A stretch of DNA of 64,000 bases from an uncultured Gammaproteobacteria bacterium (GCA_964599455.1 CAZREA010000001.1:71687-135686), one strand, 5' to 3'. Counted from the stretch's first letter, positions 49,852 through 64,000 are shown. The notes: generated by a model from the sequence alone, not told the origin. Numbers and translations: made by a program.

Positions 49852-49926
49852 TCCGAGGTAGCTCAGCGGTAGAGCAGTTGGCTGTTAACCAATTGGTCCT
49901 GGGTTCAAATCCCAGCCTCGGAGCCA
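49852..49926 (+). tRNA. tRNA-Asn (anticodon GTT)
   Basis: A cloverleaf folds by eye. The acceptor stem is TCCGAGG/CCTCGGA, the D-arm GCTCAGCGGTAGAGC, the anticodon stem-loop GTTGG-CTGTTAA-CCAAT and the T-arm CTGGGTTCAAATCCCAG. The discriminator G and CCA are encoded. Confidence 0.9.
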
Positions 49927-50009
49927 GCAAGAGACATCAATATTTATTGGTGTTTTTTGTTTGACCTAAGTGGGACGTTAGAACCCGAGCATGATAATAT
50001 ATACTCAAT

Positions 50010-50663
50010 ATGAGAAAAGAAGATCTACAAAAGCTAGGATCACCAGATAAGGAAAGTCGGATTGGCAACGATGTCACGGATCATGATTTTCAAGTACTTC
50101 TGAAAGAAATTGAGCAGGCGTGCGTCGTGTTTCCCAAGAAAACCCCAAAACCATTCATCCTCATTCCAACAGGATTGACCGCATCAGGTAAATCGACAAT
50201 CGTAAAACAAATTGCAGAACACTATTCATTGGTCATTATTCGGACCGATAGCATACGAAGTTACTTAGAAGGTAGAGGATTTAATTTGGTGAGAACGGTT
50301 GAATTTGCATATGATCTGGTAATGAACAGTTTAAAACGAGGATACGGTGTAGCGATTGATGCAGATGTAGTTCAGGAGAAGGATAGAGATGTTATGAGGA
50401 AAGTTGCGAGAGAATTTGGAATTCCTCTTATTTCTATCAAGGTTGTTACACCAGAAAATGTTATTTTATCTAGATTAGATGAAAAGAATTTAGATAGAGA
50501 CTATCGGGGTCGGGAAGCGATAAAACGGTATTTTGAACGAAAGCCTCTTCATAGTGATCACGATTTAGATCATGACTTTAAATTCAATGGAAACTCAGAC
50601 TTAGCACCACAGTTAATAATGGCCTTTGAGCGAATCAATGAGCGTCTCACTGAAGAGAGTTAG
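50010..50663 (+). CDS. P-loop kinase (AAA_33-like ATP-binding protein)
   Basis: Walker A ILIPTGLTASGKSTIV. About 200 aa, the size of small-molecule or polynucleotide kinases. Confidence 0.55.
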   Translation: MRKEDLQKLGSPDKESRIGNDVTDHDFQVLLKEIEQACVVFPKKTPKPFILIPTGLTASGKSTIVKQIAEHYSLVIIRTDSIRSYLEGRGFNLVRTVEFAYDLVMNSLKRGYGVAIDADVVQEKDRDVMRKVAREFGIPLISIKVVTPENVILSRLDEKNLDRDYRGREAIKRYFERKPLHSDHDLDHDFKFNGNSDLAPQLIMAFERINERLTEES

Positions 50664-51543
50664 ATCTAAGGTTTGCCAGTTCACCGTTCTAAACCCGTCC
50701 ACTATTCGGAGCCACATGGAACTGACGTGTGAAAATGCGTCAGTTTTATGTTTGTCTTCGCCATTTTTCATCGGTTCTAACCTACGGTACTCGGCTTCTA
50801 ACGCTGGATACTCATTTACGATAGGAACAAGCCAAGGATGTGCCTCAATGCGGAGTTTTCCGTGCAAAATCGTCGGGTTCGAACCTAACGCCATCATGAT
50901 CTCTTTCTTGCGTTGCAGGTCGCCTTTGAGAAAGGCGCTGTGCGCATAGGTGGCAAAGTCGAACAGCTCCTCCGTAAGCTCAAGCCATCGGTCAGCACGG
51001 GTTTCTGTTTTATCAATCTCTTTGCGCAACTCTGCTTGTTCAGCTTTCAAACGGTCACGCTCTCGGATGTATTCGGCATCGTCAATCAAATCCCGTGCCC
51101 GCATGCGGGTGAGGTTATCGATCTGCGACTGGTTTTCAGCAATGGCCGCAAGTTGGGACTCGTACACTTTCGTGCGTTTGGTCACTTCGTTGTCATGGTC
51201 TTTACCGAGGTTCTCCAACGCCCATGTTCGGAACTCTGGGAGAATAGTGACTGTATGGGGATCGTTCTGTTCTATTTGGTTCAAGAAGTTCAAAATCGTA
51301 GGTGTGTTTCTGTTCAGTGTTCTTTCCGATGAGTCGGATCTTTCCTTCGGCATCGAAATCCTGCAAGATTGTGAGCTGTTCGCTTCGATCAAGGAAAATC
51401 GGCTCATAATCACCCTCGTCTTTCACCAAGTACGCAAAATACGAAGCCGTATTACTTCCAGCTTTTTGTGCGGCCTCGGTCAGATTTCCCCACACATACT
51501 TTCGTTTCTGTTCTTGTGACCATGGCCAGTCCCTCGCATCCAT
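50613..51543 (-). pseudogene. multiply frameshifted coiled-coil, recombinase-like gene (possible integrase remnant)
   Basis: Two long ORFs in different frames overlap (51202..51543 and 50613..51413). A third short frame starts at an ATG with a good SD (ggaggagg). The sequence has a long charged coiled coil (DAEYIRERDRLKAEQAELRKEIDK). It is positioned like an int gene next to the Xis-like HTH and a tRNA. Confidence 0.3.
50680..50716. repeat. direct repeat copy 1 (about 37 bp)
   Basis: ttcaccgttctaaacccgtccactattcggagccaca matches copy 2 at 55354-55390 with 6 mismatches. The 28-bp core ctRaacccRtccaStattcggagccaca has 3 mismatches. Confidence 0.75.
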
Positions 51544-51624
51544 AGTTGTGTAATAGTCATTTTCCTCCTCCTGAATATGATGTAGTATATAGTAACTAAT
51601 GGTAAGTCAGGAATCAAGACCGCT

Positions 51625-51813
51625 ATGGACATAAAAACGCTCCCCGACATTCTTACACTTGGTCAAGTGTGCGAGATCTTGAACGTGCATGCAAACACGC
51701 TCCGACAATGGGATGCAAAAGGTATTCTTCCCGCCATCAGATTCGGAGCAAGAGGCGATCGAAGGTACAAGAAACAGGACGTGCTCAAGTTACTGGATCA
51801 AAAGGGTGCTTGA
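51625..51813 (+). CDS. excisionase/MerR-like HTH DNA-binding protein
   Basis: 62 aa. LTLGQVCEILNVHANTLRQWDAKGILPAIRFGARGDRRY is the Xis/AlpA/MerR-type HTH_17 pattern. Confidence 0.6.
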   Translation: MDIKTLPDILTLGQVCEILNVHANTLRQWDAKGILPAIRFGARGDRRYKKQDVLKLLDQKGA

Positions 51814-51825
51814 GCTCATCAAAAA

Positions 51826-52659
51826 ATGATTATGAATATCAAGCATTTTTACGAAAAATCACAAGGGGAGATAGTCGAGCTATTTCGTGATTTTATCGTG
51901 ACCGACATGTTCGAGCAGTATCCAAAGCTGAAAGACAAGATCAGCTTGATTATCACGGGATCCGTTCCTTCTGATCACTACGACCAATACAGCGACATCG
52001 ATTGCGAGTTCTTTTATGTAGAGGAGTCGGATCGGGAAACGATGAACGCAATAGTAAAGGAATACAAAAAGAGTATTCATGAGCGGAAGCTACCAATCCA
52101 GTTTCATCCCGCAAAGACGTTTGAGGAGCTTCGAAAAGAGCATCTCAATGGGTGGAAAAATGATGACGCCCTGCGGGAGTACTCGATTGCACTCGTGGTA
52201 CTTGATCCAGAAGATCGCTATAAGAAAATCGCATCGACGATTCAGTGGTATCCCGAAGATGTTTTGAGTGAAAAAATCAACTGGCTTTTTGCCGAGTCCA
52301 TTTTTCATTTTGAAGATAGATTCGTTATCGCCGCCAGACGAGAAAATGCTCTCTACGCACATTCTGTGCGCTCCCACATCATCAAGCTACTCGGTAACGC
52401 ATTACTCATGACGGGCGGGCATTGGCCTGTTTTTGAAAAGCATCTTTCGACCGAGCTGAATACGTACGGTGAAAAGGACTTTTGTCTTGCAGTGAGTGAT
52501 TTGTTGGTGACAACAGATTTGGGGGAGATGCAAGCGAAGCTGAAAAAAGTCATCGCCTTGGTCGAGGATCGTTTATTGCGAGATGGACGGATTGAAAATA
52601 AAGCATCCGAGCAATGGATTTTGTTACGACCGAAATATCAGGTCGAGCATTGTCGTTGA
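51826..52659 (+). CDS. Pol-beta-superfamily nucleotidyltransferase (ANT(4')/Lnu-like)
   Basis: IITGSVPSDHYDQYSDIDCEFF matches the minimal NTase signature GS-x(9-13)-[DE]h[DE]h (compare kanamycin NTase GVYGSLGRQTDGPYSDIEMMCV). A roughly 180-aa helical C-terminal domain follows. Confidence 0.6.
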   Translation: MIMNIKHFYEKSQGEIVELFRDFIVTDMFEQYPKLKDKISLIITGSVPSDHYDQYSDIDCEFFYVEESDRETMNAIVKEYKKSIHERKLPIQFHPAKTFEELRKEHLNGWKNDDALREYSIALVVLDPEDRYKKIASTIQWYPEDVLSEKINWLFAESIFHFEDRFVIAARRENALYAHSVRSHIIKLLGNALLMTGGHWPVFEKHLSTELNTYGEKDFCLAVSDLLVTTDLGEMQAKLKKVIALVEDRLLRDGRIENKASEQWILLRPKYQVEHCR

Positions 52660-52671
52660 GAAAAACCATCT

Positions 52672-53214
52672 ATGCATCCAGCTGAACCACAGAGCGAGTT
52701 ATTGCAGTGTTTCGATGAGCAGGGTCTTCCTACCGAAGTGCACACGAGAAGCGAAGTAAAAATGATGCCACCACGCTGGTGGTACGCCACGAGTAAAGTA
52801 TGGCTCGTGAACGATCACGGTGAACTCATGTGTTCGAAACGTGCGGAGGGTCTTTCTGGAAATCCAAATAAGTGGCAAACGTATTTCGGGGGTCATGTGG
52901 CGGCGGGACTCACGATCAAAGAGTCGGCGCAGAGAGAGCTTGAGGAAGAAGCGGGCGTTGTTCGGCCTCTTGAGGACTTTCATTTTATTGATCGTGGTCG
53001 AGATGACATAAAGAAGGTGCATTACGAGTTTTACGCCGTGCGTTTCAATGGTCAGCCATCGGATCTTCACTTTTCTGATAACGAGGTCACCGAAGCGAAA
53101 TGGATGAGCATGGAGAAATACTGGTCTGATCAAGCGGCAAATTCTGACCGTTGGTGCAACGGCTGTACGCCTGAACGACAACAGTTGATCTGTGATTGGT
53201 TGAAAGCCGTCTGA
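52672..53214 (+). CDS. Nudix hydrolase
   Basis: Nudix box GGHVAAGLTIKESAQRELEEEAGV, which has the same 13-residue spacing as MutT (GGKIEMGETPEQAVVRELQEEVGI). Confidence 0.75.
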   Translation: MHPAEPQSELLQCFDEQGLPTEVHTRSEVKMMPPRWWYATSKVWLVNDHGELMCSKRAEGLSGNPNKWQTYFGGHVAAGLTIKESAQRELEEEAGVVRPLEDFHFIDRGRDDIKKVHYEFYAVRFNGQPSDLHFSDNEVTEAKWMSMEKYWSDQAANSDRWCNGCTPERQQLICDWLKAV

Positions 53215-53705
53215 TGGGCGGGGTATCTATGCCTATTGTTTTCACAATACATCCCGCTTTGGAAACCGCTTCGTTGCCCAGCGTTAGCGAAGTGAGTTCG
53301 GTTGCGCTTATTGCGTTGAACCAGCATGGCGAAATACTAGTCACTCACCATAAAGAGCGAGGTTGGGATATTCTTGGTGGTCACGTCGAAAATGGGGAAA
53401 GTATTATTGAGGCGTTACAGCGTGAGGTACTCGAGGAGGCGGGGGCGACATTCGGAAAAGCGACCTTGATTGCAACAATCGCCTCTGATGCAACCGAGGA
53501 GAAATACCGTGGGAAATCGATGCTCATTTTTGTAACGAACGATTTTCAGCTGACCGAACAGTGGCGACCGTCTGATGATGTTTCGGATCGAGCGATTATC
53601 AGCGCTGACGAGATGCTCAAGGGATATCACGGTGATAAAGGCGGCATGATCGAGTTACTGAATCTGGCCGCAAGACGTTTGGGATTATCTGCAAGACATC
53701 TATGA
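53196..53705 (+). CDS. Nudix hydrolase
   Basis: Canonical Nudix box GGHVENGESIIEALQREVLEEAGA. It overlaps the upstream Nudix gene by 19 nt. Confidence 0.8.
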   Translation: MVESRLMGGVSMPIVFTIHPALETASLPSVSEVSSVALIALNQHGEILVTHHKERGWDILGGHVENGESIIEALQREVLEEAGATFGKATLIATIASDATEEKYRGKSMLIFVTNDFQLTEQWRPSDDVSDRAIISADEMLKGYHGDKGGMIELLNLAARRLGLSARHL

Positions 53706-54484
53706 GCATATTCAACCCAGAACTGCGTGAAAACCGTGAATCAAAATGGGAGGAAAATCGATTCTCTCCCGACCTTCAGAAGAAGCTATTGAAGGCGCTT
53801 GATGATGGTAAGGATCGATTCCCTGATATTGTTCAGTGTCCCAACCAAACATGTGGAAACCCTTTGAAAATAGAGATGCAAAAGGATGCTATCTTGGTAC
53901 ATTGCACTAACTGTGGTTGGGAAAGCGTCGTGAGGAGGATTTCGGCATCGAGCTTACGGAAAGATCGTAAATATAGCATCGTGCCTTATCAGCCAAGTTG
54001 GGCGACTGACTTCGAAACTGTCAAAAAGCAGATCGCTCCAGTATTTGGTGATCGAGCCGTTGAGATAATGCATGTTGGAAGTACGGCGATCGTCGGCATG
54101 AGTGGGAAACCCACCATCGATGTACTTGTAATCGTAAACGCCATTACAGGGGTGGACGATTTGAACGGAGCGATGTCTGAACTGGGCTACATCGCACTTG
54201 GTGAATATGTCGCCCCGAATGGCCGACTATTTGCAAAGGAGGTGAATAACGAGCGCTTGGTCAACGTGCATTGTTTTGAGAAAGATCATCCGCATGCGCA
54301 AGAAATGATCGTGATGCGTGACTTCTTGCAAAGCCATCCCGACGAGGCAAAGGCATACGCCGATTTGAAGATCCGCCTGTACGAACAGTACCCTGACGAT
54401 TATCAGGCATACCGACATGTCAAAGATCCATATTTGGCAGAAATGAAAATACGAGCAATGGAATGGGGGCGTACCCATCGCTAA
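53702..54484 (+). CDS. Zn-ribbon / GrpB-family (nucleotidyltransferase-fold) fusion protein
   Basis: The N-terminus has a CPNQTCGN...CTNCGW zinc ribbon. The C-terminus has HVGSTAIVGMSGKPTIDVLV, the GrpB/UPF0157 motif. It has an ATGA overlap with the upstream gene. Confidence 0.65.
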   Translation: MSIFNPELRENRESKWEENRFSPDLQKKLLKALDDGKDRFPDIVQCPNQTCGNPLKIEMQKDAILVHCTNCGWESVVRRISASSLRKDRKYSIVPYQPSWATDFETVKKQIAPVFGDRAVEIMHVGSTAIVGMSGKPTIDVLVIVNAITGVDDLNGAMSELGYIALGEYVAPNGRLFAKEVNNERLVNVHCFEKDHPHAQEMIVMRDFLQSHPDEAKAYADLKIRLYEQYPDDYQAYRHVKDPYLAEMKIRAMEWGRTHR

Positions 54485-54640: not shown

Positions 54641-55318
54641 ATGGAAATCAATCATCAAAAAATATTAAAAGATTTCATCTCGCACCTAGATAAGTATATT
54701 GCGCTCCTTGAAAAAGGATCATCATCCACCATCGATATCCCCGATGACCTAGATGTAAAGCAAATTTACAGAATATTTCTTAGGAGATTTCGATCAAATC
54801 TTTACGCTTTATTATCACTCGAAGATCCTTTAATATTCGCCCTTCTGCAGCGGTATAATCATGAAATGTTATTAGATTTTTATTTTCTATGTTCTGATAA
54901 AGATGAAGAAAAGCGAGCGAAGAATTTCAAAAAGTTTTCATCATTTCCAAAAGAAATTCCAGAAGAAATAAAATCAAAAAAATGGAAAAAGTGGGGTGGT
55001 TACGATACATCTTATAAAGAGATATTCATGCCACCTTGGACTGGTAGTCAAGATTCTTTCGAAAATATTTATAAACATCTGAGCAATCTAGCTCATTCGA
55101 ATATTCTATCTATCACCCTCAACGTTCTTGATAATGACGCTAAAAGAAGCCGTAAAGTTATAACCGAAGCAATTTTTCTCTGTATTTTTGAGATAGCCAC
55201 ATGTCTCGATTACTATGGCTTTAGAATAATACTCGGCCCGAATGATTTAAATGATGATTTATATTCTGCTAATTTAGACTTTCAACACCAAGCAGGCCTC
55301 ATGCTAATCTCAGATTAG
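54641..55318 (+). CDS. hypothetical protein (AT-rich compositional outlier)
   Basis: 225-aa Lys/Asn/Ile-rich ORF in a segment visibly more AT-rich than anything else in the window. No motif recognised. Confidence 0.4.
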   Translation: MEINHQKILKDFISHLDKYIALLEKGSSSTIDIPDDLDVKQIYRIFLRRFRSNLYALLSLEDPLIFALLQRYNHEMLLDFYFLCSDKDEEKRAKNFKKFSSFPKEIPEEIKSKKWKKWGGYDTSYKEIFMPPWTGSQDSFENIYKHLSNLAHSNILSITLNVLDNDAKRSRKVITEAIFLCIFEIATCLDYYGFRIILGPNDLNDDLYSANLDFQHQAGLMLISD

Positions 55319-55353
55319 CTATCGAGGAATAATTCATAATCCATCCTTTCCAA

Positions 55354-55390
55354 TCCACCATTCTGAACCCATCCAGTATTCGGAGCCACA
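55354..55390. repeat. direct repeat copy 2 (about 37 bp)
   Basis: tccaccattctgaacccatccagtattcggagccaca; see copy 1. Confidence 0.75.
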
Positions 55391-55581
55391 GAAATCTCTC
55401 GCATTTCACGAGGGATTTTTGTATTTTCAAGTCCCTCCCCGGGCGGGTACAGAACTTGATTTCCCTTAACCCCCAGAGCGATTTTTTAGGAGGTCGTACG
55501 AGCACCCGGGTCACATGGCAAAATGAGACAAATGAGACACAAAAACGGGGTGTGTCTCAAGTTAAAATTAACCCAGATTTT

Positions 55582-57447: not shown

Positions 57448-58590
57448 TTAGTTAAGAGTAATCGTTGGTCGGTATTCACCATCAACAAGATCGTGAATCA
57501 CCACTTTAGGAGCGACATCGCGAAGAAGCTCTCGACCGCAGATGATGGCGATCGGTGCAGGAACCGCGAGAAAGAAGTGCACTTTCTCAACATTTCTATG
57601 ACGTGATTCAAGCAGCGACAAAAATTCCTGGAAAGTGTTCCGGAAGTTTTCCAATGTCTTTGGTGAACGTAGGAGTGTTCTGCTCGGCGGCACATCAATT
57701 GGTTCGATCTGGTAGACGATTCCGCCACCCATCGATTTCTCGACCTTATCAACCTCACCTCCGCTGATTGAAGCAAGGAATGCTATTTTGTTGCCACTCT
57801 GTTTTCCGTGCTGGGAAATTTTAAACTTCACCTCAGCACCATCTTCCGGCCAGATCCATCCCTCACCGTCATCTCTATGCTTTTGATAAAGGCTGATCGG
57901 GACTTTGTCACCAAGGTGATAACCGAAGAAACAAAGAAGTGGAATGCGGGCAAGTGAAAACACAGAAAGACGCTCGATATCCCCGCGCTCGATTTGTGGC
58001 AGGATTTGCTCTTGCAGTACGGTCTTGATCTTAGCAGTACCCGCCTTCCAGTAATCCCTGTCGCCGGTATCCGCGATTTTTCCGAGGTCAATGTCGATTA
58101 TTCGCTGGTCGGTATAGCGTTTTTCATGCTTAAACACCGCCGGGTACACCTCACTGTCTGACATCTTTGTGAGATTTCCCCTGACTTGTCCCAACAAACG
58201 GATTACGTGCGTTTTCGCTGTTGCCGGAATACTTGTCAAAAGTGTCATGCGATCTTCGTGCTTCTGTTTCCACTCCCGAAGAAGATCGACTGGAAAATCG
58301 GGGACATGTTTCTTCTTATCTATAAGCGCATGATGCTTGGTGCACATCAGCATCAAGTTTTCCGGTTCAGACCGCTTTTTCATTGGCAGTGGGTGATCTC
58401 CTCGAGGTCCCTTGCGTGAATCTCCGACAATGTGCGCAATATTTCCAAGTCGTGCTTTTTTATGAGTCAGCGATTCAACCATGACCCCCTCGGGGCAGCC
58501 GTAAAACGAGCAGCGACCAGCGGCTGCAACGTATACTTCAAGAATGGTTGCCTCGGAAATCGCTGGCGCTTTTTCTTCTCTTTTTGCCAT
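57448..58590 (-). CDS. Cap5-like CBASS effector (N-terminal HNH endonuclease + C-terminal SAVED-like domain)
   Basis: The N-terminus has HNH motif elements (CSFYGC..., NIAHIVGDS, ENLMLMCTKHHALID). The roughly 260-aa C-terminal remainder has the size of a SAVED sensor domain. It sits 5 nt upstream of the CD-NTase gene. Confidence 0.6.
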   Translation of the reverse strand: MAKREEKAPAISEATILEVYVAAAGRCSFYGCPEGVMVESLTHKKARLGNIAHIVGDSRKGPRGDHPLPMKKRSEPENLMLMCTKHHALIDKKKHVPDFPVDLLREWKQKHEDRMTLLTSIPATAKTHVIRLLGQVRGNLTKMSDSEVYPAVFKHEKRYTDQRIIDIDLGKIADTGDRDYWKAGTAKIKTVLQEQILPQIERGDIERLSVFSLARIPLLCFFGYHLGDKVPISLYQKHRDDGEGWIWPEDGAEVKFKISQHGKQSGNKIAFLASISGGEVDKVEKSMGGGIVYQIEPIDVPPSRTLLRSPKTLENFRNTFQEFLSLLESRHRNVEKVHFFLAVPAPIAIICGRELLRDVAPKVVIHDLVDGEYRPTITLN

Positions 58591-58591
58591 A

Positions 58592-59266
58592 CTAACTCCA
58601 GTTCACGGTCGGTTTTTTAAGAACGAACTTTACCTCACCTGCCACGAAGAATTTATCGGAGTCTTCCGGATGAAGAAAGATTGGCGGGTTAGGTTCTGTG
58701 GATTCCGAGAGAAGCGCGATCTCCCCCGTCTGGTCGTTCTTGGAGAATCGCTTGATGTTCGCCAGACCTTCGAGCACAGCGACGATGTAGGAACCCGACT
58801 CCGGATTGCGCTTGGTGGAGTCGATGATGACGTAGTCGCCGTCCTCGATGCTGTTCTTGCGATCTCCCGCCTTTGCAGCGTTCATGGAGTTGCCGCTTGC
58901 GCGAAGGGCGAACAGCTTCTTTCCCGGATGGACGAGCTTCGCTGAGACCTGAAGGAAGCCTTCCACCACGTCTTCCGCGTACAGACTTGCGGGACCGCAG
59001 TTTGCGGCACCAAGGATCGGGATGGAGTTCAGAGAAAGATTGTCACCGCGGTCATCAAGTGCAGTCACGACACCGCCCTCTCCCTTTTTAAGATGCCCCG
59101 ACGCGTAAAGCTGGGAAAGGTGATAGCTCACGCCGCTTGGGTTCTTGATACCAACGGCGTCCCCAATCTGCTGGAGGGACATATCGCCCAAGTTCCGGCT
59201 ACGGGCGAGGGCAAGAAGTTTGCGTTTTGTCTCATGCATACGGGTAAATACTAGCTTGCTTTGCAA
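58592..59266 (-). CDS. LexA/CI-like S24-family repressor
   Basis: The N-terminus has a winged HTH (LQQIGDAVGIKNPSGVSYHLSQL). The C-terminal S24 peptidase domain has the Ser nucleophile in ASGNSM and the Lys in LANIKRF. Its stop lies 1 nt before the Cap5-like start. Confidence 0.8.
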   Translation of the reverse strand: MQSKLVFTRMHETKRKLLALARSRNLGDMSLQQIGDAVGIKNPSGVSYHLSQLYASGHLKKGEGGVVTALDDRGDNLSLNSIPILGAANCGPASLYAEDVVEGFLQVSAKLVHPGKKLFALRASGNSMNAAKAGDRKNSIEDGDYVIIDSTKRNPESGSYIVAVLEGLANIKRFSKNDQTGEIALLSESTEPNPPIFLHPEDSDKFFVAGEVKFVLKKPTVNWS

Positions 59267-59296
59267 ATCCTTTCAAGTCCTGTAATATTGCGGTAT

Positions 59297-59830
59297 ATGC
59301 CAGCAAAAATAAGATTCCTTAATCCGGTGTGGCGAGAAATGGCCGAACTAGCTCTTCAAGAGCAGACAGAGCGTGTGAGGGAGCTAGGAGCATCCATGCG
59401 TGACCACGCGGAAATCAGTCGTACCCTTCTTTCCGCATCATCGTTCAATGGAATAAAGGGCTCTGAAGACCGAATAGCTGAGCGTGTGACGAACAGCCTG
59501 ACCGACCTCTTTGTGACTGCAGGTGGTGCCGATCGTGTCGTCTTCGTCGTCTCGGATAATACTTTGCGGCGCTGGCCATCCACCGCAACGGGAATGCTGC
59601 TCAGTGCGCAACGCAGGAAGTTGATCGAGTCCCTATCTCACGAATTTACTTCTCCAAAAACTCTGGCAGCACGTTCGGGTTTTAAGAATGCTGTCGGCGT
59701 GCAACAGGCGGTAGCAAAGATCAAGCGCAAATTTCAAGCGACGTTCGGATTGTCGACACCTTTCATTGAAGGACGGGAGGGCTACGGATACAGACTCGCC
59801 GAAGCATACAGCCTGATCGACACCGCTTAA
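59297..59830 (+). CDS. hypothetical regulator with OmpR-type winged-helix C-terminus
   Basis: It is divergent from the S24 repressor. The C-terminus PFIEGREGYGYRLAE resembles the trans_reg_C wing. The start is moved to MPAKIRF. Confidence 0.4.
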   Translation: MPAKIRFLNPVWREMAELALQEQTERVRELGASMRDHAEISRTLLSASSFNGIKGSEDRIAERVTNSLTDLFVTAGGADRVVFVVSDNTLRRWPSTATGMLLSAQRRKLIESLSHEFTSPKTLAARSGFKNAVGVQQAVAKIKRKFQATFGLSTPFIEGREGYGYRLAEAYSLIDTA

Positions 59831-59856
59831 CCCAACATCCTGCGGACAAGGTTTGG

Positions 59857-59885
59857 AAACAGCCGAAAAGACGGCTGTTTTTTGT
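59857..59885 (+). terminator. rho-independent terminator
   Basis: aaacagccg-aaaaga-cggctgttt followed by TTTTG. Confidence 0.65.
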
Positions 59886-59922
59886 ATTGGAGCGGAGGCT
59901 CGGGTTAATCGACGGTTAAGCG

Positions 59923-61242
59923 GTGAGTGCGGGAAAATTTCTGCATATGAAAACCCAATCAACAGCCAAGCTCACATGGCGAACCGAGAAGCGGCGCGTC
60001 ACGGATCTCGTGCCAAACGACAAGAACCCTCGGGTCATGAGCCCGAAGCAGGTCGAGGATCTCACGAATAGCCTCAAGAAATTCAATCTCGTTGAAATCC
60101 CCGTCATCGACGCGGACGACAAGGTGCTCGCAGGCCATCAACGCCTGGCCGTACTGAAACTCCTTGGACGTGAGGACGAGGAAATCGAAGTGCGTGTACC
60201 GAATCGCAAGCTCACACAATCTGAATACGACCAATACCTTCTCACGAGCAATCGCGTCCACGGTGATTGGGATTGGTCAAAGCTCGCGGAAGGATTCGAT
60301 ATCGATCTGCTGCTCGACGTCGGGTTCGACAGCGAAGACATCGCTAATATCTGGGATGAGACGCTTGAGACGGAAGACGATGAGTTCGATGTGGCGAAGG
60401 AAATCGCCGCAATTAAGAAGCCCGTAACTAAACCGGGAACGCTTTACGCGCTTGGCTCACATCGTCTGCTCTGCGGAGACTCAACCAAGACCGAGGAAGT
60501 GAGGCTGCTCGTTAGCAAACGTGAAGTGGGCTTTATCGCTTGCGATCCCCCGTACAACATCGGGCTCTCTTACGACAAAGGCGTCGGCACTGCTGGGAAG
60601 TACGGAGGACACAAGACCAACGACAGCCTGAGCGACAAGGACTATCGCGCATTCATCAGGAAGACGATGGAGAACGCACTCGGCGTCGCAAGGCACGACG
60701 TCCACGCCTTCTATTGGTGCGACGAGTCCTACATCTATCTCATGCAGGAACTGTTCCGCGAATTCGGACTTACGAATCGGCGCGTCTGCATTTGGCTCAA
60801 GGACAACGCAAATCCCACACCGGGCGTTGCTTTCAACAAAGTCAGTGAACCGTGCGTGTACGCAACGCGCGGGAAGCCGTATCTCGCACCCTCCGTTATG
60901 AACCTGAACGAAGTCCTCAATAAAGAAGTTGGTACAGGCAACCAGCTTATCGAGGACGTGCTTGATCTCCTCAACGTATGGCTTGTGAAACGCCTCGCCT
61001 CATCTTCTTACGAACATCCGACGAGCAAGAATCCGACGCTCCACGAAAAGTCATTGCGACGCTGCACTAAGCCAGGTGATTACGTTCTCGACCTATTCGG
61101 TGGAAGCGGTTCGACGCTCATTGCCTGCGAACAGCTCAAACGTCGCGCACTTCTCTGTGAACAGGAGCCGATTTTTTGTGACGTGATCGTAAAGCGATAC
61201 GAAAAACTTACCGGCAAAAAGGCGGAAATCATTAGCTCGTGA
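59923..61242 (+). CDS. ParB-like nuclease domain fused to DNA N6-adenine/N4-cytosine methyltransferase
   Basis: The N-terminal ParB/Srx fold reads EIPVIDADDKVLAGHQRLAVL. In the methyltransferase domain the DPPY motif (IACDPPYNI) precedes the AdoMet motif DLFGGSGST (beta-class order). Confidence 0.8.
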   Translation: MSAGKFLHMKTQSTAKLTWRTEKRRVTDLVPNDKNPRVMSPKQVEDLTNSLKKFNLVEIPVIDADDKVLAGHQRLAVLKLLGREDEEIEVRVPNRKLTQSEYDQYLLTSNRVHGDWDWSKLAEGFDIDLLLDVGFDSEDIANIWDETLETEDDEFDVAKEIAAIKKPVTKPGTLYALGSHRLLCGDSTKTEEVRLLVSKREVGFIACDPPYNIGLSYDKGVGTAGKYGGHKTNDSLSDKDYRAFIRKTMENALGVARHDVHAFYWCDESYIYLMQELFREFGLTNRRVCIWLKDNANPTPGVAFNKVSEPCVYATRGKPYLAPSVMNLNEVLNKEVGTGNQLIEDVLDLLNVWLVKRLASSSYEHPTSKNPTLHEKSLRRCTKPGDYVLDLFGGSGSTLIACEQLKRRALLCEQEPIFCDVIVKRYEKLTGKKAEIISS

Positions 61243-61245
61243 TTT

Positions 61246-61665
61246 ATGTCGGAAGAAAACCGTATCGAAGTCCGGCAAGCCGAGCAAAAAAAGCTACTGA
61301 TTGATCAGCTTAAGAAGACGCCGATCGTGCAGGTCGCCTGCGAGAAGATCGGCGTCGGTCGCGCCACGTTCTACCGGTGGCTTAAGGACGATCCCGATTT
61401 CGGAAAGCTCGCCAACGAATCCATTACCGAAGGTAACGGCCTCATCAGCGACGTGGCCGAAAGCCAACTTGCGAACCTTATCAAGAGCGGAAACCTCGGA
61501 GCTATCTCGTTTTGGCTCAAACATCGCCACCCCGCCTACCGCAACAAGGTGGAAGTACAAGCTAATGTCCGCCATGAAGACACGCCGCTTACCCCCGAAG
61601 AAATGGAGGTCGTTGCTCAGTCGCTACGGCTCGCACTCACAGGTGATGAGAATCAAGAAAATTAA
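61246..61665 (+). CDS. phage terminase small subunit (HTH type)
   Basis: 139 aa. The N-terminal HTH reads VACEKIGVGRATFYRWLKDDPDF. It is immediately upstream of the terminase large subunit. Confidence 0.55.
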   Translation: MSEENRIEVRQAEQKKLLIDQLKKTPIVQVACEKIGVGRATFYRWLKDDPDFGKLANESITEGNGLISDVAESQLANLIKSGNLGAISFWLKHRHPAYRNKVEVQANVRHEDTPLTPEEMEVVAQSLRLALTGDENQEN

Positions 61666-61674
61666 TCCTTACTT

Positions 61675-63204
61675 ATGCAAAGTCAAACAGCTCAACCTAC
61701 CAAAGAGCTCATCGACAGCCTTCTAACGAATCACAAGACCCGCGTTGCGGTCACTCGGGCAAGCCACCTCATGTTTTGTGCAACCTACTTTGCGCATTAC
61801 ACCCAATTTCCATTTGCGGACTTTCACCGGGAGATGTTCGCGCTTAGCGAGCGCGACGACATCCCGCTCTTTATCGTGGAAGCGTTCCGGGGCTCGGGAA
61901 AATCCACCATCATGACGATGTCGCTGCCCATCTGGAGCGTGCTCGGAAAGGATCAGCGGAAGTTCATCATGCTTTTGGGTCAGACGCAGCGACAGGCTAA
62001 ACAGCACTTCATGAACCTCAAGCGCGAACTTGAGACAAATGAACTGCTCCGCAATGACCTGGGACCATTTGAAACTGTTGAGGATGAGTGGGGTTCAAAT
62101 TCAATCGTGCTGACCCGCTACGGCGCGAGGATTACCTGCGCGTCCATGGAACAGCCGATTCGTGGAATGCGTCACGGACGCCATCGTCCCGATCTGGTGA
62201 TCTGTGACGACGTGGAAGACGTATCCTCGGCAAAGACGAAAGAAGGACGCGATAAAGCCTACCAGTGGTTTACGAGCGAGGTGCTCCCCATTGGGGACGA
62301 ACGGACCAAGATCGTTGTGGTGGGAAATCTGGTTCACGAAGATGGACTGCTCTCGCGTTTGGAAAATGCCATTACCAACAAAGAGCGTAAAGGCGTTTTC
62401 AAGAAGTATCCGTTTCTCGACGGCAAGGATAAGCCGCTCTGGAAGAGTCGTTTCCCAACCAAAGAAGACGTGCAGAAGAAAATTGCGTTCGTCGGCGACC
62501 TGATTACCTGGGCGCGCGAATACATGCTCTACATCATCTCGGACGTCGAGCGTGTTATTCATCGCGAATGGCTCCACTATTATGACGAGCTTCCCGGCGT
62601 GAATGGAGACAATTTCAAGTTCGGTGTTATTGGGGTGGATCTCGCCATCTCCCAACGGAGCCGCGCCGACTATACCGCCATCGTTACGGCGATGGTGTAC
62701 AAGAATGGCGACAGCCGAAAGATATATATCTTGCCAAGCCCAATAAACGCGCGTCTGACATTTCCCCGTGCAGTCGAGAAAATCAAGGATACTCACGACG
62801 CGTCGCCACGCCCGAAGAAGACCAAAATCGCTGTTGAATCCGTTGCGTATCAGGCCGCCATGTGGCAGGAACTTAAGCGCCAAGGATACGAAGCCGAGCC
62901 ATACGAGGTACGAGGAAGCGACAAGCGTTCTCGTCTTGCGCTTCTTTCAGAGCCGATTAAGAACGGCACCATTCTTTTCCCGAAGCACGGAGCAAAGGAT
63001 CTTATTAACCAACTCGTAAACTTTGGCGTAGAGCGCCACGACGACCTTGCGGATGCCTTTGCAATCACTGCTTCTTATGGCATGGAGAAGAAGATTAAGA
63101 CATTTGGCGTCTGGGTCATCGACACCAGGCCAGAGCCTCGTTACAGCCTCGGGGACGTGTTCGGTGGCGGATACTGGAATCAGCCCGGAAACTTCCGACG
63201 ATGA
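61675..63204 (+). CDS. phage terminase large subunit
   Basis: Walker A IVEAFRGSGKSTIM, Walker B LVICDDVED, and a C-terminal RNase H-like nuclease region (VIGVDLAISQRSRADYTAIV...DDLADAFAI). Confidence 0.85.
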   Translation: MQSQTAQPTKELIDSLLTNHKTRVAVTRASHLMFCATYFAHYTQFPFADFHREMFALSERDDIPLFIVEAFRGSGKSTIMTMSLPIWSVLGKDQRKFIMLLGQTQRQAKQHFMNLKRELETNELLRNDLGPFETVEDEWGSNSIVLTRYGARITCASMEQPIRGMRHGRHRPDLVICDDVEDVSSAKTKEGRDKAYQWFTSEVLPIGDERTKIVVVGNLVHEDGLLSRLENAITNKERKGVFKKYPFLDGKDKPLWKSRFPTKEDVQKKIAFVGDLITWAREYMLYIISDVERVIHREWLHYYDELPGVNGDNFKFGVIGVDLAISQRSRADYTAIVTAMVYKNGDSRKIYILPSPINARLTFPRAVEKIKDTHDASPRPKKTKIAVESVAYQAAMWQELKRQGYEAEPYEVRGSDKRSRLALLSEPIKNGTILFPKHGAKDLINQLVNFGVERHDDLADAFAITASYGMEKKIKTFGVWVIDTRPEPRYSLGDVFGGGYWNQPGNFRR

Positions 63205-63206
63205 GT

Positions 63207-63986
63207 CTACTTGTCAGCGGCTGTTACGCCCGTGTAATAGCCGCTCTTGTTTATGATCTGCACCGGTTTTACGGAGTAGGTGGTTGCGTTTTCGTCCATA
63301 TTTGCGAGCTTCGCGAGTGACTTCCAGTCGCGTGTCTCTCCAGTTCCACCGTCGCCAAGAGCATCCTCATTTGTGGCGATGAAGAAGCTCGTGACCTGGC
63401 GTGACTTCATGTCGTAGTCGAGCACCAAATCGTATCCGTTAACTTTGAACGAGTTGTCCCAAGTTGTTGTACCCATGGAGATTTGTAGAGCGGTGGGTTC
63501 AGTTTGCTTGCCGTCGGTGGGCGTACCGAGTTCCTTGCGCGCATCTTCAATTGTCAGCGAGAGGATGTGCGGGGCGTCGACGATGGGCGTTACGGTTTCG
63601 TCAGCAACGGAGGCGTCATTCTGCTCACTCATTCCTTCGATGAAACCAACGATTGCACCGACGCTGATAAGAGCAATGAAAATGATTCCGCAGACCTTGA
63701 GCAAAAGCGTCATCTGGCTCGGCTCCTTCGTCGTTCCACTTGGATCGGGATGCTGGCTATCTAGATCGAGGTAAACGGTATAGTCGTTCTTCGCCATGTA
63801 ATACAAGGCGTACGGAATTACGCCGGTAATCAAAGCAAAGAGACAGGAAAAGGACTTCTTGCGAACAAGCTGCGCACTTGATGAATCTTGTAGCGTGACC
63901 GTGTAACCGTGCTCGACCAACTCTTTGATCTGAGCCTTGAGGTTGTTTGGGTGTTTGTTAACGACCCAAGCGGGGTTGTGAGCCAT
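63207..63986 (-). CDS. hypothetical membrane-anchored protein (prophage-borne)
   Basis: 259 aa with two hydrophobic helices (LFALITGVIPYALYY, LLLKVCGIIFIALISVGAIVGFI) and a Thr/Asp-rich extracellular part. Confidence 0.4.
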   Translation of the reverse strand: MAHNPAWVVNKHPNNLKAQIKELVEHGYTVTLQDSSSAQLVRKKSFSCLFALITGVIPYALYYMAKNDYTVYLDLDSQHPDPSGTTKEPSQMTLLLKVCGIIFIALISVGAIVGFIEGMSEQNDASVADETVTPIVDAPHILSLTIEDARKELGTPTDGKQTEPTALQISMGTTTWDNSFKVNGYDLVLDYDMKSRQVTSFFIATNEDALGDGGTGETRDWKSLAKLANMDENATTYSVKPVQIINKSGYYTGVTAADK

Positions 63987-64000
63987 AGGTGAAGCTTTTG

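What the first reader, a model, noticed from the sequence alone, without database searches (positions are those of the whole stretch)
49852..64000. Phage-derived integrated element at tRNA-Asn carrying stacked accessory cargo (defence island)
Immediately after tRNA-Asn the gene content changes from housekeeping to the following set: a recombinase-like pseudogene, an Xis-like HTH, a CI-like repressor with a divergent regulator, a ParB-DNA methyltransferase fusion, TerS and TerL. Between the integration end and the packaging module there are about 8 kb of cargo: a kinase, the NTase/Nudix operon, an AT-rich gene and CBASS. The element continues past 64000, so its right attachment site and the structural genes cannot be seen. 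The attB/attL is expected to overlap the tRNA 3' end.
Basis: partly seen in the sequence, partly recalled or inferred. Interest (0 to 1): 0.55.

Follow-up and report, generated by a model that had tools for sequence, protein, structure and literature searches.

The report
Capsid-less terminase island beside tRNA-Asn
The DNA after tRNA-Asn in this ultra-small (Patescibacteria) bacterium is not a hidden prophage: it is a decayed island followed by an intact mobile element of about 10 kb that carries phage DNA-packaging genes, a recombinase and an anti-phage CBASS system but no virus-shell genes, and this kind of element is widespread in the phylum and, as far as I could find, undescribed.

Summary

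The region is a composite.
- Unit A (about 50.67-55.39 kb) is a decayed island. It is bracketed by two degenerate copies of the tRNA-Asn 3' end. It holds only the last ~200 codons of a ~556-aa large serine recombinase.
- Unit B (55436 to at least ~65.67 kb) is intact. Its genes are a Zn-ribbon/Xis-like protein, an S24 repressor co-transcribed with a two-gene CBASS, a divergent small gene, ParB-methylase, TerS, TerL, a membrane protein, and a 449-aa serine recombinase that starts at 64319.

In 52 related loci TerS adjoins TerL in all 52, and the methylase in 50 of 50. The same recombinase follows TerL in 39 of 46. No recombinase-linked locus has a portal. These TerLs form one clade, apart from portal-linked phage TerLs, and the core genes are under strong purifying selection.

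Close relatives of this recombinase sit beside tRNA-Asn. A more distant subgroup sits beside tRNA-Gln. Both cargo slots carry defence systems.

Best reading (inferred): a helper-dependent, satellite-like element. I found no description of it in the literature.

The parts
49852..49926 (+). tRNA-Asn (anticodon GTT). A hairpin and T-run terminator follow at about 49933-49962.
   Evidence: ARAGORN; Rfam; sequence; alignment.
50010..50663 (+). AAA_33 P-loop kinase (217 aa). It is the only gene between the tRNA and the first tRNA-like repeat.
   Evidence: Pfam PF13671, E=1.7e-14. Only a weak PADLOC VakA match.
50673..50716 (+). Repeat D2-1, a degenerate copy of the tRNA-Asn 3' half (T-loop region plus TCGGAGCCA). 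It lies antisense inside the tail of the recombinase remnant. A 17-bp hairpin follows at 50714-50751.
   Evidence: the repeat finder D2: 44 nt, 84% identical to 55347-55390. Alignment to the tRNA. Hairpin.
50613..51413 (-). 5'-truncated pseudogene of a ~556-aa large serine recombinase. Homology covers 50667-51278, which corresponds to residues ~339-547 of full-length relatives. The catalytic, recombinase and zinc-ribbon domains are absent.
   Evidence: 1610 homologs. Full-length ones have Resolvase+Recombinase+Zn_ribbon_recom. tblastn mapping. phrog_95 E=7e-7.
51625..51813 (+). HTH_17/MerR-type small DNA-binding protein (Xis-like), divergent from the recombinase remnant.
   Evidence: Pfam PF12728, E=7.5e-11. 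Homologs sit inside TerL-type elements L033, L040, L048 and L059.
51826..54484 (+). Cargo operon of the decayed island: a nucleotidyltransferase-like protein, two Nudix hydrolases, and a Zn-ribbon+GrpB protein.
   Evidence: Pfam. No known defence system matched in PADLOC except a weak PDC-S07 hit for the Nudix proteins.
54641..55318 (+). AT-rich gene (225 aa) with a weak DUF5677 match.
   Evidence: Pfam E=4e-4, below the family cut-off. GC 0.37.
55347..55390 (+). Repeat D2-2, the second degenerate copy of the tRNA-Asn 3' half. A hairpin and T-run follow at about 55396-55425. It marks the right end of the decayed island.
55436..55455 (+). Left end of the intact element. DNA homology with the sister element L099 begins here (CTCC|CCGGGCGGGTACAG), inside an imperfect palindrome.
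   Evidence: blastn: L099 406-1049 matches window 55435-56078 at 92%, with nothing further left.
55456..56091 (+). Zn-ribbon + Xis/BldC-like winged-helix protein. The real start is probably M43, at 55582. It is a candidate excision-directionality factor or regulator.
   Evidence: 23 homologs, the only informatively named one from Patescibacteria; CxxC...CxxC is invariant. AlphaFold pLDDT 78.6. The C-terminal domain resembles BldC and Pukovnik Xis only weakly (TM ~0.6, E>0.1).
56081..57442 (-). CBASS cyclase: a CD-NTase with a SMODS domain and an AGS-C sensor domain.
   Evidence: Pfam PF18144 and PF18134. PADLOC Cyclase E=5e-119. PDB CdnG/cGAS-like matches.
57448..58590 (-). CBASS effector: a Cap5-like HNH endonuclease fused to a SAVED sensor.
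   Evidence: Pfam SAVED E=2e-30. PADLOC SAVED_HNH E=4e-99. PDB SAVED-HNH entries 8YSQ, 7RWK, 7RWM and 8FM1, which I know as Cap5.
58592..59239 (-). LexA/CI-type S24 autoprotease repressor, with GNSM and IKRF motifs. It is the first gene of the operon S24 -> Cap5 -> CD-NTase; only 1 nt separates its stop from the next ATG.
   Evidence: Pfam PF00717 E=2.4e-16. phrog_4 repressor. Junction sequence TAGtATG.
59261..59830 (+). Small ORF divergent from the S24 gene, a probable regulator of unknown fold. A terminator-like hairpin follows at about 59856-59890.
   Evidence: ORF and sequence. No Pfam, PHROG or PDB match.
59923..61242 (+). ParB_N domain fused to an N6/N4 DNA methyltransferase (DPPY motif).
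   Evidence: Pfam PF01555. phrog_498 E=1e-88 and phrog_620 ParB. 96% aa identity to L099, dN/dS 0.03.
61246..61665 (+). Small terminase subunit (TerS).
   Evidence: Pfam HTH_Tnp_1_2. phrog_309, phrog_4044 and two further TerS families. Adjacent to TerL in 52 of 52 related loci.
61675..63204 (+). Large terminase subunit (TerL). Walker A GSGKST, Walker B LVICDD and the nuclease acidic residues are conserved.
   Evidence: Pfam Terminase_6N and 6C. phrog_38 E=2e-76. Invariant columns. Best cultured-phage relatives are Mu-like, at 27-28% identity.
63207..63986 (-). 259-aa membrane protein in the variable slot between TerL and the recombinase. A superinfection-exclusion role is only a guess.
   Evidence: Translation. 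No family match. Orthologs in L099 and L101 at 77-89%, and a syntenic 259-aa gene with 77% DNA identity in L104. dN/dS 0.07.
63987..64000 (+). Start of the spacer that leads to the 449-aa large serine recombinase. That gene starts at 64319, outside the window, and its inferred stop is about 65668.
   Evidence: Logan contig L001 extends the window to 64574. The N-terminal 80 aa are identical to P0244, 449 aa. The cluster representative P0122 has Resolvase+Recombinase domains.

Best explanation
SHOWN. The block after tRNA-Asn is a composite genomic island in a Patescibacteria (Uhrbacteria-like) chromosome.

Unit A (about 50.67-55.39 kb) is a dead island that once integrated into tRNA-Asn. Two degenerate copies of the tRNA 3' half, each followed by a hairpin and T-run, bracket it. 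Its recombinase is cut down to the last ~200 codons. In intact members of that ~556-aa recombinase family, the 3' end of the gene overlaps, antisense, a tRNA 3' end.

Unit B (55436 to at least ~65668) is intact. It belongs to a large family that, in the records that carry names, comes only from candidate-phyla-radiation bacteria (Patescibacteria). Its conserved core is ParB-methylase, TerS, TerL and a ~440-450-aa large serine recombinase. The family has no portal, capsid or tail genes. It has two cargo slots, one upstream of the core on the opposite strand and one between TerL and the recombinase, and both are filled with defence systems. Here the upstream slot holds a two-gene CBASS (CD-NTase + Cap5). 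That CBASS is transcribed as one operon behind an S24 repressor gene, the same layout as lambda cI-rexAB.

INFERRED mechanism.
1. The serine recombinase integrates and excises the element next to a tRNA gene. The tRNA chosen depends on the recombinase subfamily: Asn for this one.
2. While the element is integrated, the S24 repressor keeps the late genes off, and its operon supplies CBASS immunity to the cell.
3. Induction may come from RecA-stimulated or helper-triggered loss of the repressor. The methylase, TerS and TerL are then made.
4. TerS/TerL package the element's methylated DNA by headful into procapsids of a helper phage with a related terminase and portal.

On this reading it is a phage-satellite-like element, and a vehicle for exchanging defence systems.
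For: Gene identities.

Family architecture:
- Sister elements L099, L101 and L104 share the backbone at 77-92% DNA identity.
- In 52 distinct related loci TerS is adjacent in 52 of 52 and the methylase in 50 of 50.
- The recombinase lies downstream on the same strand in 39 of 46 loci that have at least 1.5 kb of sequence there. It is within 400 bp in 15 of them.

No structural genes:
- Of 140 ORFs within 4 kb after TerL, 24 are serine recombinases and only 3 are portals.
- All 3 portals are in L062, L063 and L080, which lack the recombinase.
- The upstream 6 kb shows defence genes and no structural genes.
- tblastn with the three portals finds nothing in the window.

The genes are maintained:
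- A neighbour-joining tree puts all recombinase-linked TerLs in one clade and all portal-linked TerLs in the other.
- Purifying selection is strong: dN/dS 0.02-0.07 with synonymous sites saturated.
- The TerL catalytic motifs are invariant.

Mobility:
- Two units occur on each of three single contigs.
- Flanks differ between close relatives.

tRNA targeting:
- Six distinct loci with 73-91% identical recombinases have tRNA-Asn convergent with the recombinase, 1.1-4.7 kb beyond it.
- Six loci with 58-62% identical recombinases have tRNA-Gln in the same arrangement.
- Eight further loci have other tRNAs there, always in that orientation.

Cargo behind S24:
- S24 is followed by a type III-like CBASS in L099, an AAA+OLD system in L052, and TIR+8xMP in L032.

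Unit A.
Against: - No experiment or read-level evidence shows excision or packaging.
- No replication module was found.
- No helper phage is identified. The portal-bearing contigs are only candidates.
- The right end and its flank are outside the window and could not be fetched.
- The visible tRNA-Asn faces the non-recombinase end, opposite to the family rule.
- No tRNA lies within 10 kb of the recombinase in the closest relative, L099.
- Of about 12 close relatives of this recombinase with upstream sequence, found in metagenomes, only two have the TerL module. The recombinase/tRNA module is therefore shared with islands that have no terminase, and the terminase module could itself be cargo.
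- S24 and the divergent ORF are swapped together with the CBASS between the window and L099. S24 may therefore regulate the cargo rather than the element.
- Many comparison loci come from IMG/VR 'viral' calls and metagenome bins of uncertain completeness.
Confidence: 0.55

Rival explanations
1. Cryptic prophage remnant. A complete temperate phage once sat here. Its structural genes were deleted, and the repressor, methylase, TerS, TerL and integrase remain as decaying leftovers.
For: The packaging module is clearly of phage origin. It is syntenic with MTase-TerS-TerL-portal in the phage-like contig L080. A neighbouring unit in the same island really is decayed.
Against: The same capsid-less architecture recurs in 39 of 46 loci from many species. 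The element TerLs are monophyletic. dN/dS is 0.02-0.07 across core genes, with saturated synonymous change. Catalytic motifs are invariant. Independent deletions would not give the same end state, with the recombinase directly after TerL.
Confidence: 0.1
2. Complete prophage. Portal, head, tail and lysis genes and attR lie beyond 64000.
For: The window ends 800 bp after TerL. The repressor/regulator/TerS/TerL order looks lambdoid.
Against: After TerL come an opposite-strand membrane-protein gene and a serine recombinase at 64319. In sisters L099, L101 and L104 the recombinase is followed by copper-resistance genes, a helicase plus tRNA-Asn, or an unrelated gene, and never by structural genes. 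No portal appears in any recombinase-linked locus.
Confidence: 0.03
3. The terminase module serves the host or the island rather than self-transfer. In one version TerS/TerL (with ParB-methylase) act as an anti-phage interference device that hijacks or cuts the DNA of invading phages. In the other, the module drives lateral-transduction or GTA-like export of the adjacent defence cargo, using capsids encoded elsewhere or by any infecting phage.
For: The module is embedded between defence systems on both sides. Close relatives of the recombinase often carry defence cargo without any terminase, so the terminase module behaves like an exchangeable cassette. The window's TerL is 82% identical to L010's but only 53% identical to those of L099 and L101, inside an otherwise 89-96% identical backbone. 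L104's TerL region shows the same low DNA similarity. That pattern is typical of arms-race genes. PICI TerS proteins are known to interfere with helper packaging (my knowledge).
Against: No known defence family matched TerS or TerL in PADLOC; only the methylase was scanned there, so this point was not tested directly. Tight linkage to a recombinase (39 of 46 loci) and multiple copies per contig fit a selfish mobile unit. The two readings are not exclusive.
Confidence: 0.22
4. A fixed, non-mobile defence island at a tRNA hot spot. The recombinase now serves only inversion or regulation, or is inactive.
For: The orientation relative to the visible tRNA-Asn is atypical. No direct repeats bound unit B. 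There is no evidence of an empty site in the same species.
Against: The recombinase is under strong purifying selection (93% aa identity at saturated dS between L099 and L101). Near-identical backbones sit in different flanks. Assembly breaks occur at the tRNA in one sample.
Confidence: 0.1

Closest known systems
Phage-inducible chromosomal islands (PICIs/SaPIs) and other phage satellites
   Same: Size of about 10-15 kb. Integrated next to a conserved chromosomal site. A repressor with a divergently transcribed regulator. Its own TerS. No virion genes. Carries defence cargo.
   Different: It uses a large serine recombinase rather than a tyrosine integrase. No primase or replication-origin module was found. 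It also encodes TerL and a ParB-methylase. Its hosts are Patescibacteria. Helper dependence is not shown.
Capsid-forming PICIs (cf-PICIs)
   Same: A satellite that encodes both terminase subunits.
   Different: cf-PICIs also encode capsid, portal, protease and connector proteins (my knowledge). None is present here or in related loci.
Lambda immunity region, cI-rexA-rexB
   Same: An anti-phage system is co-transcribed downstream of the S24-type repressor gene, so it is expressed in the integrated state. The whole repressor/regulator/cargo block is exchanged as a cassette between sister elements.
   Different: The cargo is CBASS (or OLD-type or TIR systems in relatives), not RexAB. The repressor's role as master switch of the element is inferred.
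Type I CBASS with a Cap5 (HNH-SAVED) effector
   Same: A two-gene system with CD-NTase and SAVED-HNH, strong PADLOC and PDB matches, and no Cap2/Cap3 or HORMA/TRIP13 genes.
   Different: The cyclase carries an AGS-C domain. The system is preceded by a LexA-like S24 gene in the same operon, instead of the known CapW or CapH/CapP regulators (my knowledge).
SCCmec-type islands (Ccr large serine recombinases) and tRNA-linked genomic islands
   Same: Serine-recombinase islands accrete in tandem at one chromosomal site. Each unit is delimited by short repeats of the target's 3' end, as in unit A with D2-1 and D2-2.
   Different: The target is a tRNA 3' end rather than rlmH. In the ~556-aa family the att copy lies antisense inside the recombinase gene's own 3' end.
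Gene transfer agents
   Same: A phage-derived terminase kept under purifying selection in a cellular chromosome.
   Different: GTAs have capsid, portal and tail genes (my knowledge). These units have none in view, are multi-copy, carry a site-specific recombinase and sit at varying sites.

Membership tests
Temperate tailed prophage (Caudoviricetes) | Large terminase | tested here: met
   Pfam Terminase_6N and 6C; phrog_38 E=2e-76.
Temperate tailed prophage (Caudoviricetes) | Portal, major capsid and tail genes contiguous with the terminase | tested here: not met
   After TerL come a membrane-protein gene and a recombinase. No portal in the window by tblastn. None in the recombinase-linked relatives. 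Only about 0.6 kb beyond the window could be read directly.
PICI-type phage satellite | Integrase at one end; repressor and divergent regulator; TerS; about 10-15 kb; no virion genes | tested here: met
   The integrase is of the serine type, which is atypical for this family.
PICI-type phage satellite | Own replication module (primase/helicase plus origin) | tested here: not met
   All ORFs of 55436-64000 were scanned. None matched a replication family.
PICI-type phage satellite | Induction, excision and packaging that depend on a helper phage | not testable with these tools
   Needs culture work or virus-particle and read-level data.
cf-PICI | Capsid, portal, protease and connector genes on the island | tested here: not met
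CBASS (type I, Cap5 effector) | CD-NTase with the GS...DxD nucleotidyltransferase core | tested here: met
   SMODS and DncV-like NTase domains. PADLOC Cyclase 5e-119. QGSF...DFDLD and HIDIV are read in the translation.
CBASS (type I, Cap5 effector) | Adjacent effector with a SAVED sensor fused to an HNH nuclease; no Cap2/3 or HORMA/TRIP13 | tested here: met
   The neighbouring genes are o55456 and S24 only.
CBASS (type I, Cap5 effector) | Cyclic nucleotide product and phage-triggered activation | not testable with these tools
   Biochemistry is required.
LexA/CI S24 autoproteolytic repressor | S24 peptidase fold with a Ser/Lys dyad | tested here: met
   PF00717 E=2.4e-16. GNSM and IKRF motifs in the translation.
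LexA/CI S24 autoproteolytic repressor | N-terminal DNA-binding domain and operator sites | tested here: inconclusive
   No Pfam HTH was detected in residues 1-82. phrog_4 'transcriptional repressor' covers residues 22-218. Operators were not sought.
Large serine recombinase (integrase), intact copy | Resolvase catalytic domain + Recombinase domain + zinc ribbon | tested here: met
   The gene starts at 64319. Its first 80 aa (YCLYARKSSEDDERQALSIESQ) are identical to P0244. The cluster representative P0122 has PF00239 and PF07508, and relatives also have PF13408. Most of the gene lies outside the window.
Large serine recombinase, remnant at 50613-51413 | Catalytic Resolvase domain | tested here: not met
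   Only residues ~339-547 of the ~556-aa family are present. It is a pseudogene.
Gene transfer agent | Capsid and portal genes that co-occur with the terminase in the host genome | not tested
   None is seen within 10 kb in any locus. Whole genomes were not available.

The most novel reading that the evidence does not exclude
The ParB-methylase/TerS/TerL + large-serine-recombinase units may be a phylum-wide, so far undescribed class of terminase-bearing but capsid-less phage satellites, or self-packaging defence islands, of Patescibacteria. On this reading they are aimed at particular tRNA genes by recombinase subfamily and serve as a main vehicle for exchange of defence systems in these reduced genomes. 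A sizeable share of the 'prophages' and IMG/VR 'viral genomes' assigned to CPR bacteria would then be these elements rather than viruses.
Probability: 0.4. Interest if true: 0.8.

Novelty: new variant of a known kind. Interest (0 to 1): 0.62.

Why it matters
Very little is known about phages, satellites and defence systems in Patescibacteria. One 2025 paper states that only one Patescibacteria phage had been described and that very few defence systems had been identified in these genomes (PMC12366544). A groundwater survey reports that 73% of the mobile elements called in CPR genomes are 'phages/prophages' (PMC12259885).

If the unit here is typical, many such calls rest on a terminase carried by a capsid-less integrative element. 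That would inflate prophage counts for these bacteria.

The family would also give three things:
- a concrete route by which CBASS, restriction-modification, OLD/Gabija-like, TIR and reverse-transcriptase systems move among CPR bacteria;
- a set of large serine integrases with apparently programmable tRNA-site preference;
- a testable satellite-helper pair in a phylum where cultivation is rare.

Tried and rejected
1. An exact or 3-mismatch search for the tRNA-Asn 3' end in the window found only the tRNA itself. The real copies are too degenerate and carry a 5-nt insertion.

2. Extending the contig failed.
- Logan contigs add only 574 bp.
- An exact 32-mer scan of the JGI metagenomes found nothing.
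- The window's recombinase, P0244, sits on a 481-kb NCBI contig that is not on record for retrieval.

3. No empty site was found. The same-species contigs either run through the tRNA or break inside it. Related species do not keep tRNA-Asn next to pepA.

4. The recombinase remnant gave no result with several methods:
- no Pfam or PDB hit;
- no similarity to the 449-aa family by tblastn;
- E=0.19 against a profile of that family.
It was solved only by the all-protein HMMER search.

5. The similarity of D2 to the tRNA in pairwise local alignment is weak on its own (p about 0.04). I accepted it only after intact family members were seen to overlap real tRNA 3' ends.

6. I looked for repeats of the tRNA 3' half at the far end of TerL-type elements and found none. 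I therefore dropped the idea that unit B duplicates part of a tRNA.

7. I first took the recombinase stop codon as the right end of unit B. The later finding that a tRNA follows after 0.1-5.5 kb of variable genes means that point may only be the start of a third cargo slot.

8. A conserved palindrome after tRNA-Asn in relatives (GTGTCTGGCGACCCAGATGC) is absent from the window. It may be a host tRNA-processing or terminator hairpin rather than an att site.

9. Other negative results:
- The fold search for the Zn-ribbon protein gave no significant whole-protein match.
- Rfam and tandem-repeat scans added nothing.
- Six literature searches found no description of such elements.

Full report
**1. 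What is in the sequence**

ARAGORN and Rfam place a single tRNA-Asn(GTT) at 49852-49926 on the + strand. The 50 kb to its left are housekeeping genes: pepA, ahpC, rsmI, metG, the ATP synthase operon and a UvrD/Cas4-type helicase. PepA relatives are 44-70% identical and come from Patescibacteria and Candidatus Uhrbacteria MAGs, so the host is a candidate-phyla-radiation bacterium.

In order they are:
- AAA_33 kinase
- a recombinase remnant on the minus strand
- an HTH_17 Xis-like gene
- a nucleotidyltransferase-like gene
- two Nudix genes
- a Zn-ribbon+GrpB gene
- an AT-rich gene
- a 211-aa ORF
- CD-NTase and HNH-SAVED (minus strand)
- an S24 repressor (minus strand) with a divergent small ORF
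- ParB_N-N6/N4 methylase
- TerS
- TerL
- a 259-aa membrane protein on the minus strand

Composition departs from the host. GC is 0.529 in 58592-64000 against 0.456 +/- 0.015 for host chunks. The tetranucleotide distance is 0.33 against 0.138 +/- 0.014. None of these genes is found beside pepA in seven related species, although pepA-ahpC-DUF3179-rsmI synteny is kept there.

**2. What lies beyond 64000**

A Logan contig with identical sequence (L001) adds 574 bp. A + strand gene starts at 64319. Its product begins MINCLMYAQ...YCLYARKSSEDDERQALSIESQ, which is a resolvase-type catalytic N-terminus. The 80 visible residues are identical to P0244, a 449-aa protein in a 90% cluster whose representative carries Resolvase and Recombinase domains. 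TerL is therefore followed by a membrane-protein gene and a large serine recombinase, not by a portal. The source contig itself could not be fetched.

**3. The terminase unit belongs to a large family without virion genes**

The window's TerL has more than 2600 homologs. Those around 50% identity sit mostly on long contigs. Every named one is from Patescibacteria lineages or is labelled only 'phage terminase-like'.

I examined gene neighbourhoods from public assemblies and 80 IMG/VR loci. They give one picture:
- In 52 distinct loci whose TerL is at least ~41% identical, TerS is adjacent in 52 of 52.
- A ParB-methylase, often with a second methylase, is adjacent in 50 of 50.
- The same recombinase family follows TerL on the same strand in 39 of 46 loci with at least 1.5 kb of downstream sequence. 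It is within 400 bp in 15, at 0.4-2.5 kb in 15, and at 2.5-9.3 kb in 9.

I scanned the 140 ORFs within 4 kb after TerL against Pfam and PHROGs:
- 24 are serine recombinases.
- 3 are portals, and all three are in L062, L063 and L080. Those loci have no recombinase and their TerL is only 42-44% identical.
- The rest are restriction-modification components, reverse transcriptases, PLD nucleases, helicases and the like.

The 6 kb upstream of the methylase holds S24 repressors, OLD/Gabija-like ATPases, MmeI and type ISP enzymes, GmrSD, DUF4297 and a HORMA-type CBASS. It again holds no structural genes.

A neighbour-joining tree places all recombinase-linked TerLs in one clade and all portal-linked TerLs in the other (no support values were computed).

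The core genes are under strong purifying selection. dN/dS is 0.02-0.07 where it can be calculated, with synonymous sites near saturation. The TerL ATPase and nuclease motifs are invariant. This is not what a decaying prophage remnant looks like.

**4. The ends of the intact unit (unit B)**

The sister element L099 shares with the window:
- the 211-aa ORF (92% DNA identity)
- methylase and TerS (87%)
- the membrane-protein gene and the recombinase start (88%)

It differs in the block between them and in TerL. Homology begins abruptly at window 55436 (CTCC|CCGGGCGGGTACAG), and the sequence to the left is unrelated.

On the right, L099 and L104 are homologous up to the recombinase stop codon and unrelated after it. 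L101 diverges about 45-60 nt earlier. Scaled to P0244, the recombinase ends near 65668. The conserved unit is therefore about 10.2 kb (55436 to ~65668).

Later evidence (section 6) suggests the mobile unit may run on through a third variable slot to a tRNA gene. I therefore treat 65668 as a minimum.

**5. Cargo and regulation**

The S24 gene stops 1 nt before the ATG of the HNH-SAVED gene (TAGtATG). The CD-NTase follows after 5 nt. The three genes form one operon. The effector matches the solved SAVED-HNH (Cap5) structures, and the cyclase matches CD-NTases. No Cap2/3 or HORMA/TRIP13 genes are present, so this is a type I CBASS.

In L099 the S24 gene at the same place is followed by SMODS cyclase, bacterial HORMA, an AAA ATPase and DUF6602, which looks like a type III CBASS. 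In L052 it is followed by an AAA_21 ATPase and an OLD-family nuclease. In L032 it is followed by a ThsB-type TIR protein and an 8xMP membrane protein.

The slot behind the repressor is thus a defence-cargo position, laid out like lambda cI-rexAB. One caveat: between the window and L099 the S24 gene (42% aa identity), the divergent ORF and the CBASS are exchanged together. S24 could therefore be the cargo's regulator rather than the element's master repressor.

A terminator-like hairpin follows the divergent ORF, ahead of the methylase-TerS-TerL operon.

The 211-aa ORF at the left end probably starts at M43. It has an invariant CxxC...CxxC ribbon and a C-terminal winged helix. That helix resembles BldC and phage Xis proteins only at domain level. 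Its role as a directionality factor is a guess.

**6. Link to tRNA genes**

Loci encoding the closest relatives of the window's recombinase (73-91% identical) were recovered from metagenomes. Six distinct loci have a tRNA-Asn(GTT) gene on the opposite strand, 1.1-4.7 kb beyond the recombinase stop, with its 3' end facing the recombinase: L101/L168, L169, L171, L173, L178 and L180. Six loci with 58-62% identical recombinases have tRNA-Gln(CTG) in the same arrangement, as close as 115 bp.

In the IMG/VR set and L011, eight more loci have other tRNAs there (Glu, Asp, Ser, Gln, Trp and others), always in that orientation. No copy of the tRNA 3' half is found at the far end. That fits a serine recombinase with a short crossover site outside the tRNA.

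In the window, however, the visible tRNA-Asn is on the same strand as the recombinase and lies 5.5 kb beyond the opposite (left) end of unit B. Either a second, possibly partial, tRNA-Asn copy lies on the minus strand beyond ~65.7 kb, or this copy has been inverted. I could not decide between these.

From the recombinase's side, only two of about twelve close relatives with upstream sequence carry the terminase module. The others carry large, apparently defence-type genes. The recombinase/tRNA module is thus shared by a broader class of islands.

**7. The left part of the block (unit A)**

The strongest direct repeat in the region is 44 nt, 84% identical, at 50673-50716 and 55347-55390.

The ORF at 50613-51413 (-) has 1610 homologs. 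Full-length ones are about 540-590 aa, with Resolvase, Recombinase and zinc-ribbon domains. Only their residues ~339-547 align to the window (50667-51278). Nothing matches residues 1-340.

In intact members the 3' end of the gene overlaps a tRNA 3' end on the other strand. In L106 that is a complete tRNA-Trp. In L105 and L108 it is a partial tRNA-Asn copy, from the anticodon stem to CCA, followed by a terminator.

The window's two repeats align to the tRNA-Asn 3' half. They share the T-loop region and the terminal TCGGAGCCA, and they carry a 5-nt insertion. Each is followed by a hairpin and T-run, like the real tRNA.

The simplest history is accretion at tRNA-Asn. In this history, the repeat at 55.35-55.39 kb is the old tRNA 3' end, displaced when unit A integrated. 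The repeat at 50.67-50.72 kb is unit A's own copy, displaced in turn by whatever brought in the kinase gene. Unit A can no longer move.

Its cargo (nucleotidyltransferase-like, two Nudix, GrpB, AT-rich gene) matched no known defence system. Its function is unknown. HTH_17 homologs occur inside TerL-type elements, so the two units draw on one gene pool.

**8. How it most likely works**

Shown: the architecture, its conservation, the absence of virion genes, the mobility signatures (near-identical backbones in different flanks, and several units per contig), the tRNA association and the defence cargo.

Inferred:
- The recombinase integrates and excises the unit.
- The S24 operon gives CBASS immunity while the unit is integrated.
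- On induction, the methylase, TerS and TerL are expressed, and the element's DNA is packaged by headful into procapsids of a helper phage. The terminase is distantly Mu-like (27-28% to SuMu and JBD24).

The portal-bearing contigs with the nearest TerLs (L062, L063, L080; L080 also has methylase-TerS upstream) are candidates for that helper lineage. I put about 0.4-0.45 on the satellite mechanism itself and about 0.85 on the structural description.

The main rival is that the terminase cassette serves interference, or lateral or GTA-like export, rather than self-transfer. It is not excluded, and it is favoured by two facts: the cassette is exchangeable, and TerL has been replaced by a divergent allele within one backbone. 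That TerL is 82% identical to L010's and 53% identical to L099's.

**9. Comparison with known systems, and novelty**

The unit works most like a PICI-type satellite. It fails that family's replication-module criterion, and it differs in three other respects: a serine recombinase, its own TerL, and a ParB-methylase. It fails the cf-PICI, prophage and GTA criteria for lack of capsid genes. The CBASS is an ordinary type I Cap5 system, except for the S24 gene in front. Unit A resembles tRNA-targeting islands and the tandem accretion seen with SCC elements.

Six full-text searches found no paper describing terminase-plus-serine-recombinase elements in Patescibacteria. Two papers underline how little is known of phages and defence in this phylum (PMC12366544; PMC12259885). 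I rate it a new variant of a known kind. My literature search is limited to open-access text.

**10. Verdict**

Interest is 0.62. The instance itself is a plausible but ordinary-looking island. The family it reveals is what deserves follow-up.

Noticed in passing
window 42500-44100: GC drops to 0.375-0.39 inside the housekeeping block. The genes there are an ORF6N/KilA-N-like protein (43016-43594, -) and a small Nudix gene, between metG and rsmI. This may be a small older insertion.
   Followed up: no
window 27497-30466 (-): A 989-aa UvrD/PcrA-type helicase with a C-terminal Cas4/PD-(D/E)XK nuclease domain, that is, an AddA-like fusion (NCBIfam).
   Followed up: no
L022, L023, L024, L027, L075 (IMG/VR loci): Two TerL paralogs sit in tandem (44-49% identical to the window's TerL) between TerS and the recombinase. 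They fall in two sister groups in the tree.
   Followed up: partly
IMG/VR contigs 3300032737_000190 (L021+L049), 3300014205_009253 (L050+L051), 3300033402_000781 (L046+L053): Each of these single 'viral' contigs carries two methylase-TerS-TerL units 14-27 kb apart in the same orientation. The recombinase is also seen after five of the six units; L046 ends before it could be. They look like chromosome pieces with several elements rather than virus genomes.
   Followed up: partly
window 61675-63204 compared with L010, L099, L101, L104: The window's TerL is 82% identical to L010's but only 53% identical to those of L099 and L101, and L104's TerL region shows the same low DNA similarity. The flanking methylase, the 211-aa ORF and the membrane-protein gene (89-96% identical), and the recombinase start (88% DNA identity), all match L099. 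TerL has been replaced by another allele inside one backbone.
   Followed up: partly
L099 398-412; homolog P0407 of the 211-aa ORF: At the left junction of the sister element the sequence reads TGGCTCC|CCGGG. TGGCTCC is the reverse complement of the last 7 nt of tRNA-Asn. P0407, read upstream of its true start, translates the same motif (..SSMWLPGP..). The window has TCCCTCC at that place. The meaning is unclear.
   Followed up: partly
L168, L169, L171, L173, L178, L180; also L172, L174, L175: A conserved 12-bp-stem palindrome (ACAGTGTCTGG CGAC CCAGACACTGT) directly follows the CCA of tRNA-Asn in the six loci that hold this recombinase lineage. It also occurs without a detectable tRNA in three others; in L174 it sits next to a GGAGCCA tip. 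It is absent from the window. It could be an att site or a tRNA-processing hairpin.
   Followed up: partly
window about 49869-49878 and 53717-53746: Public short-read contigs from the same project break inside tRNA-Asn in one sample (L002, L018) but run through it in another (L017). They also break at the Nudix2/GrpB junction (L017, L001). This suggests strain-level variation at both points.
   Followed up: partly
L101 6371-10912, L021 12863-17443, L049 11473-16362: A 1500-1630-aa gene lies directly after the recombinase on the opposite strand in three loci. L101's is an AAA_11/AAA_12 helicase with a Top1-type zinc ribbon, and L021's is 52% identical to it. L049's is unrelated and unannotated. 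In L101 the helicase lies between the recombinase and tRNA-Asn, which suggests a third cargo slot.
   Followed up: partly
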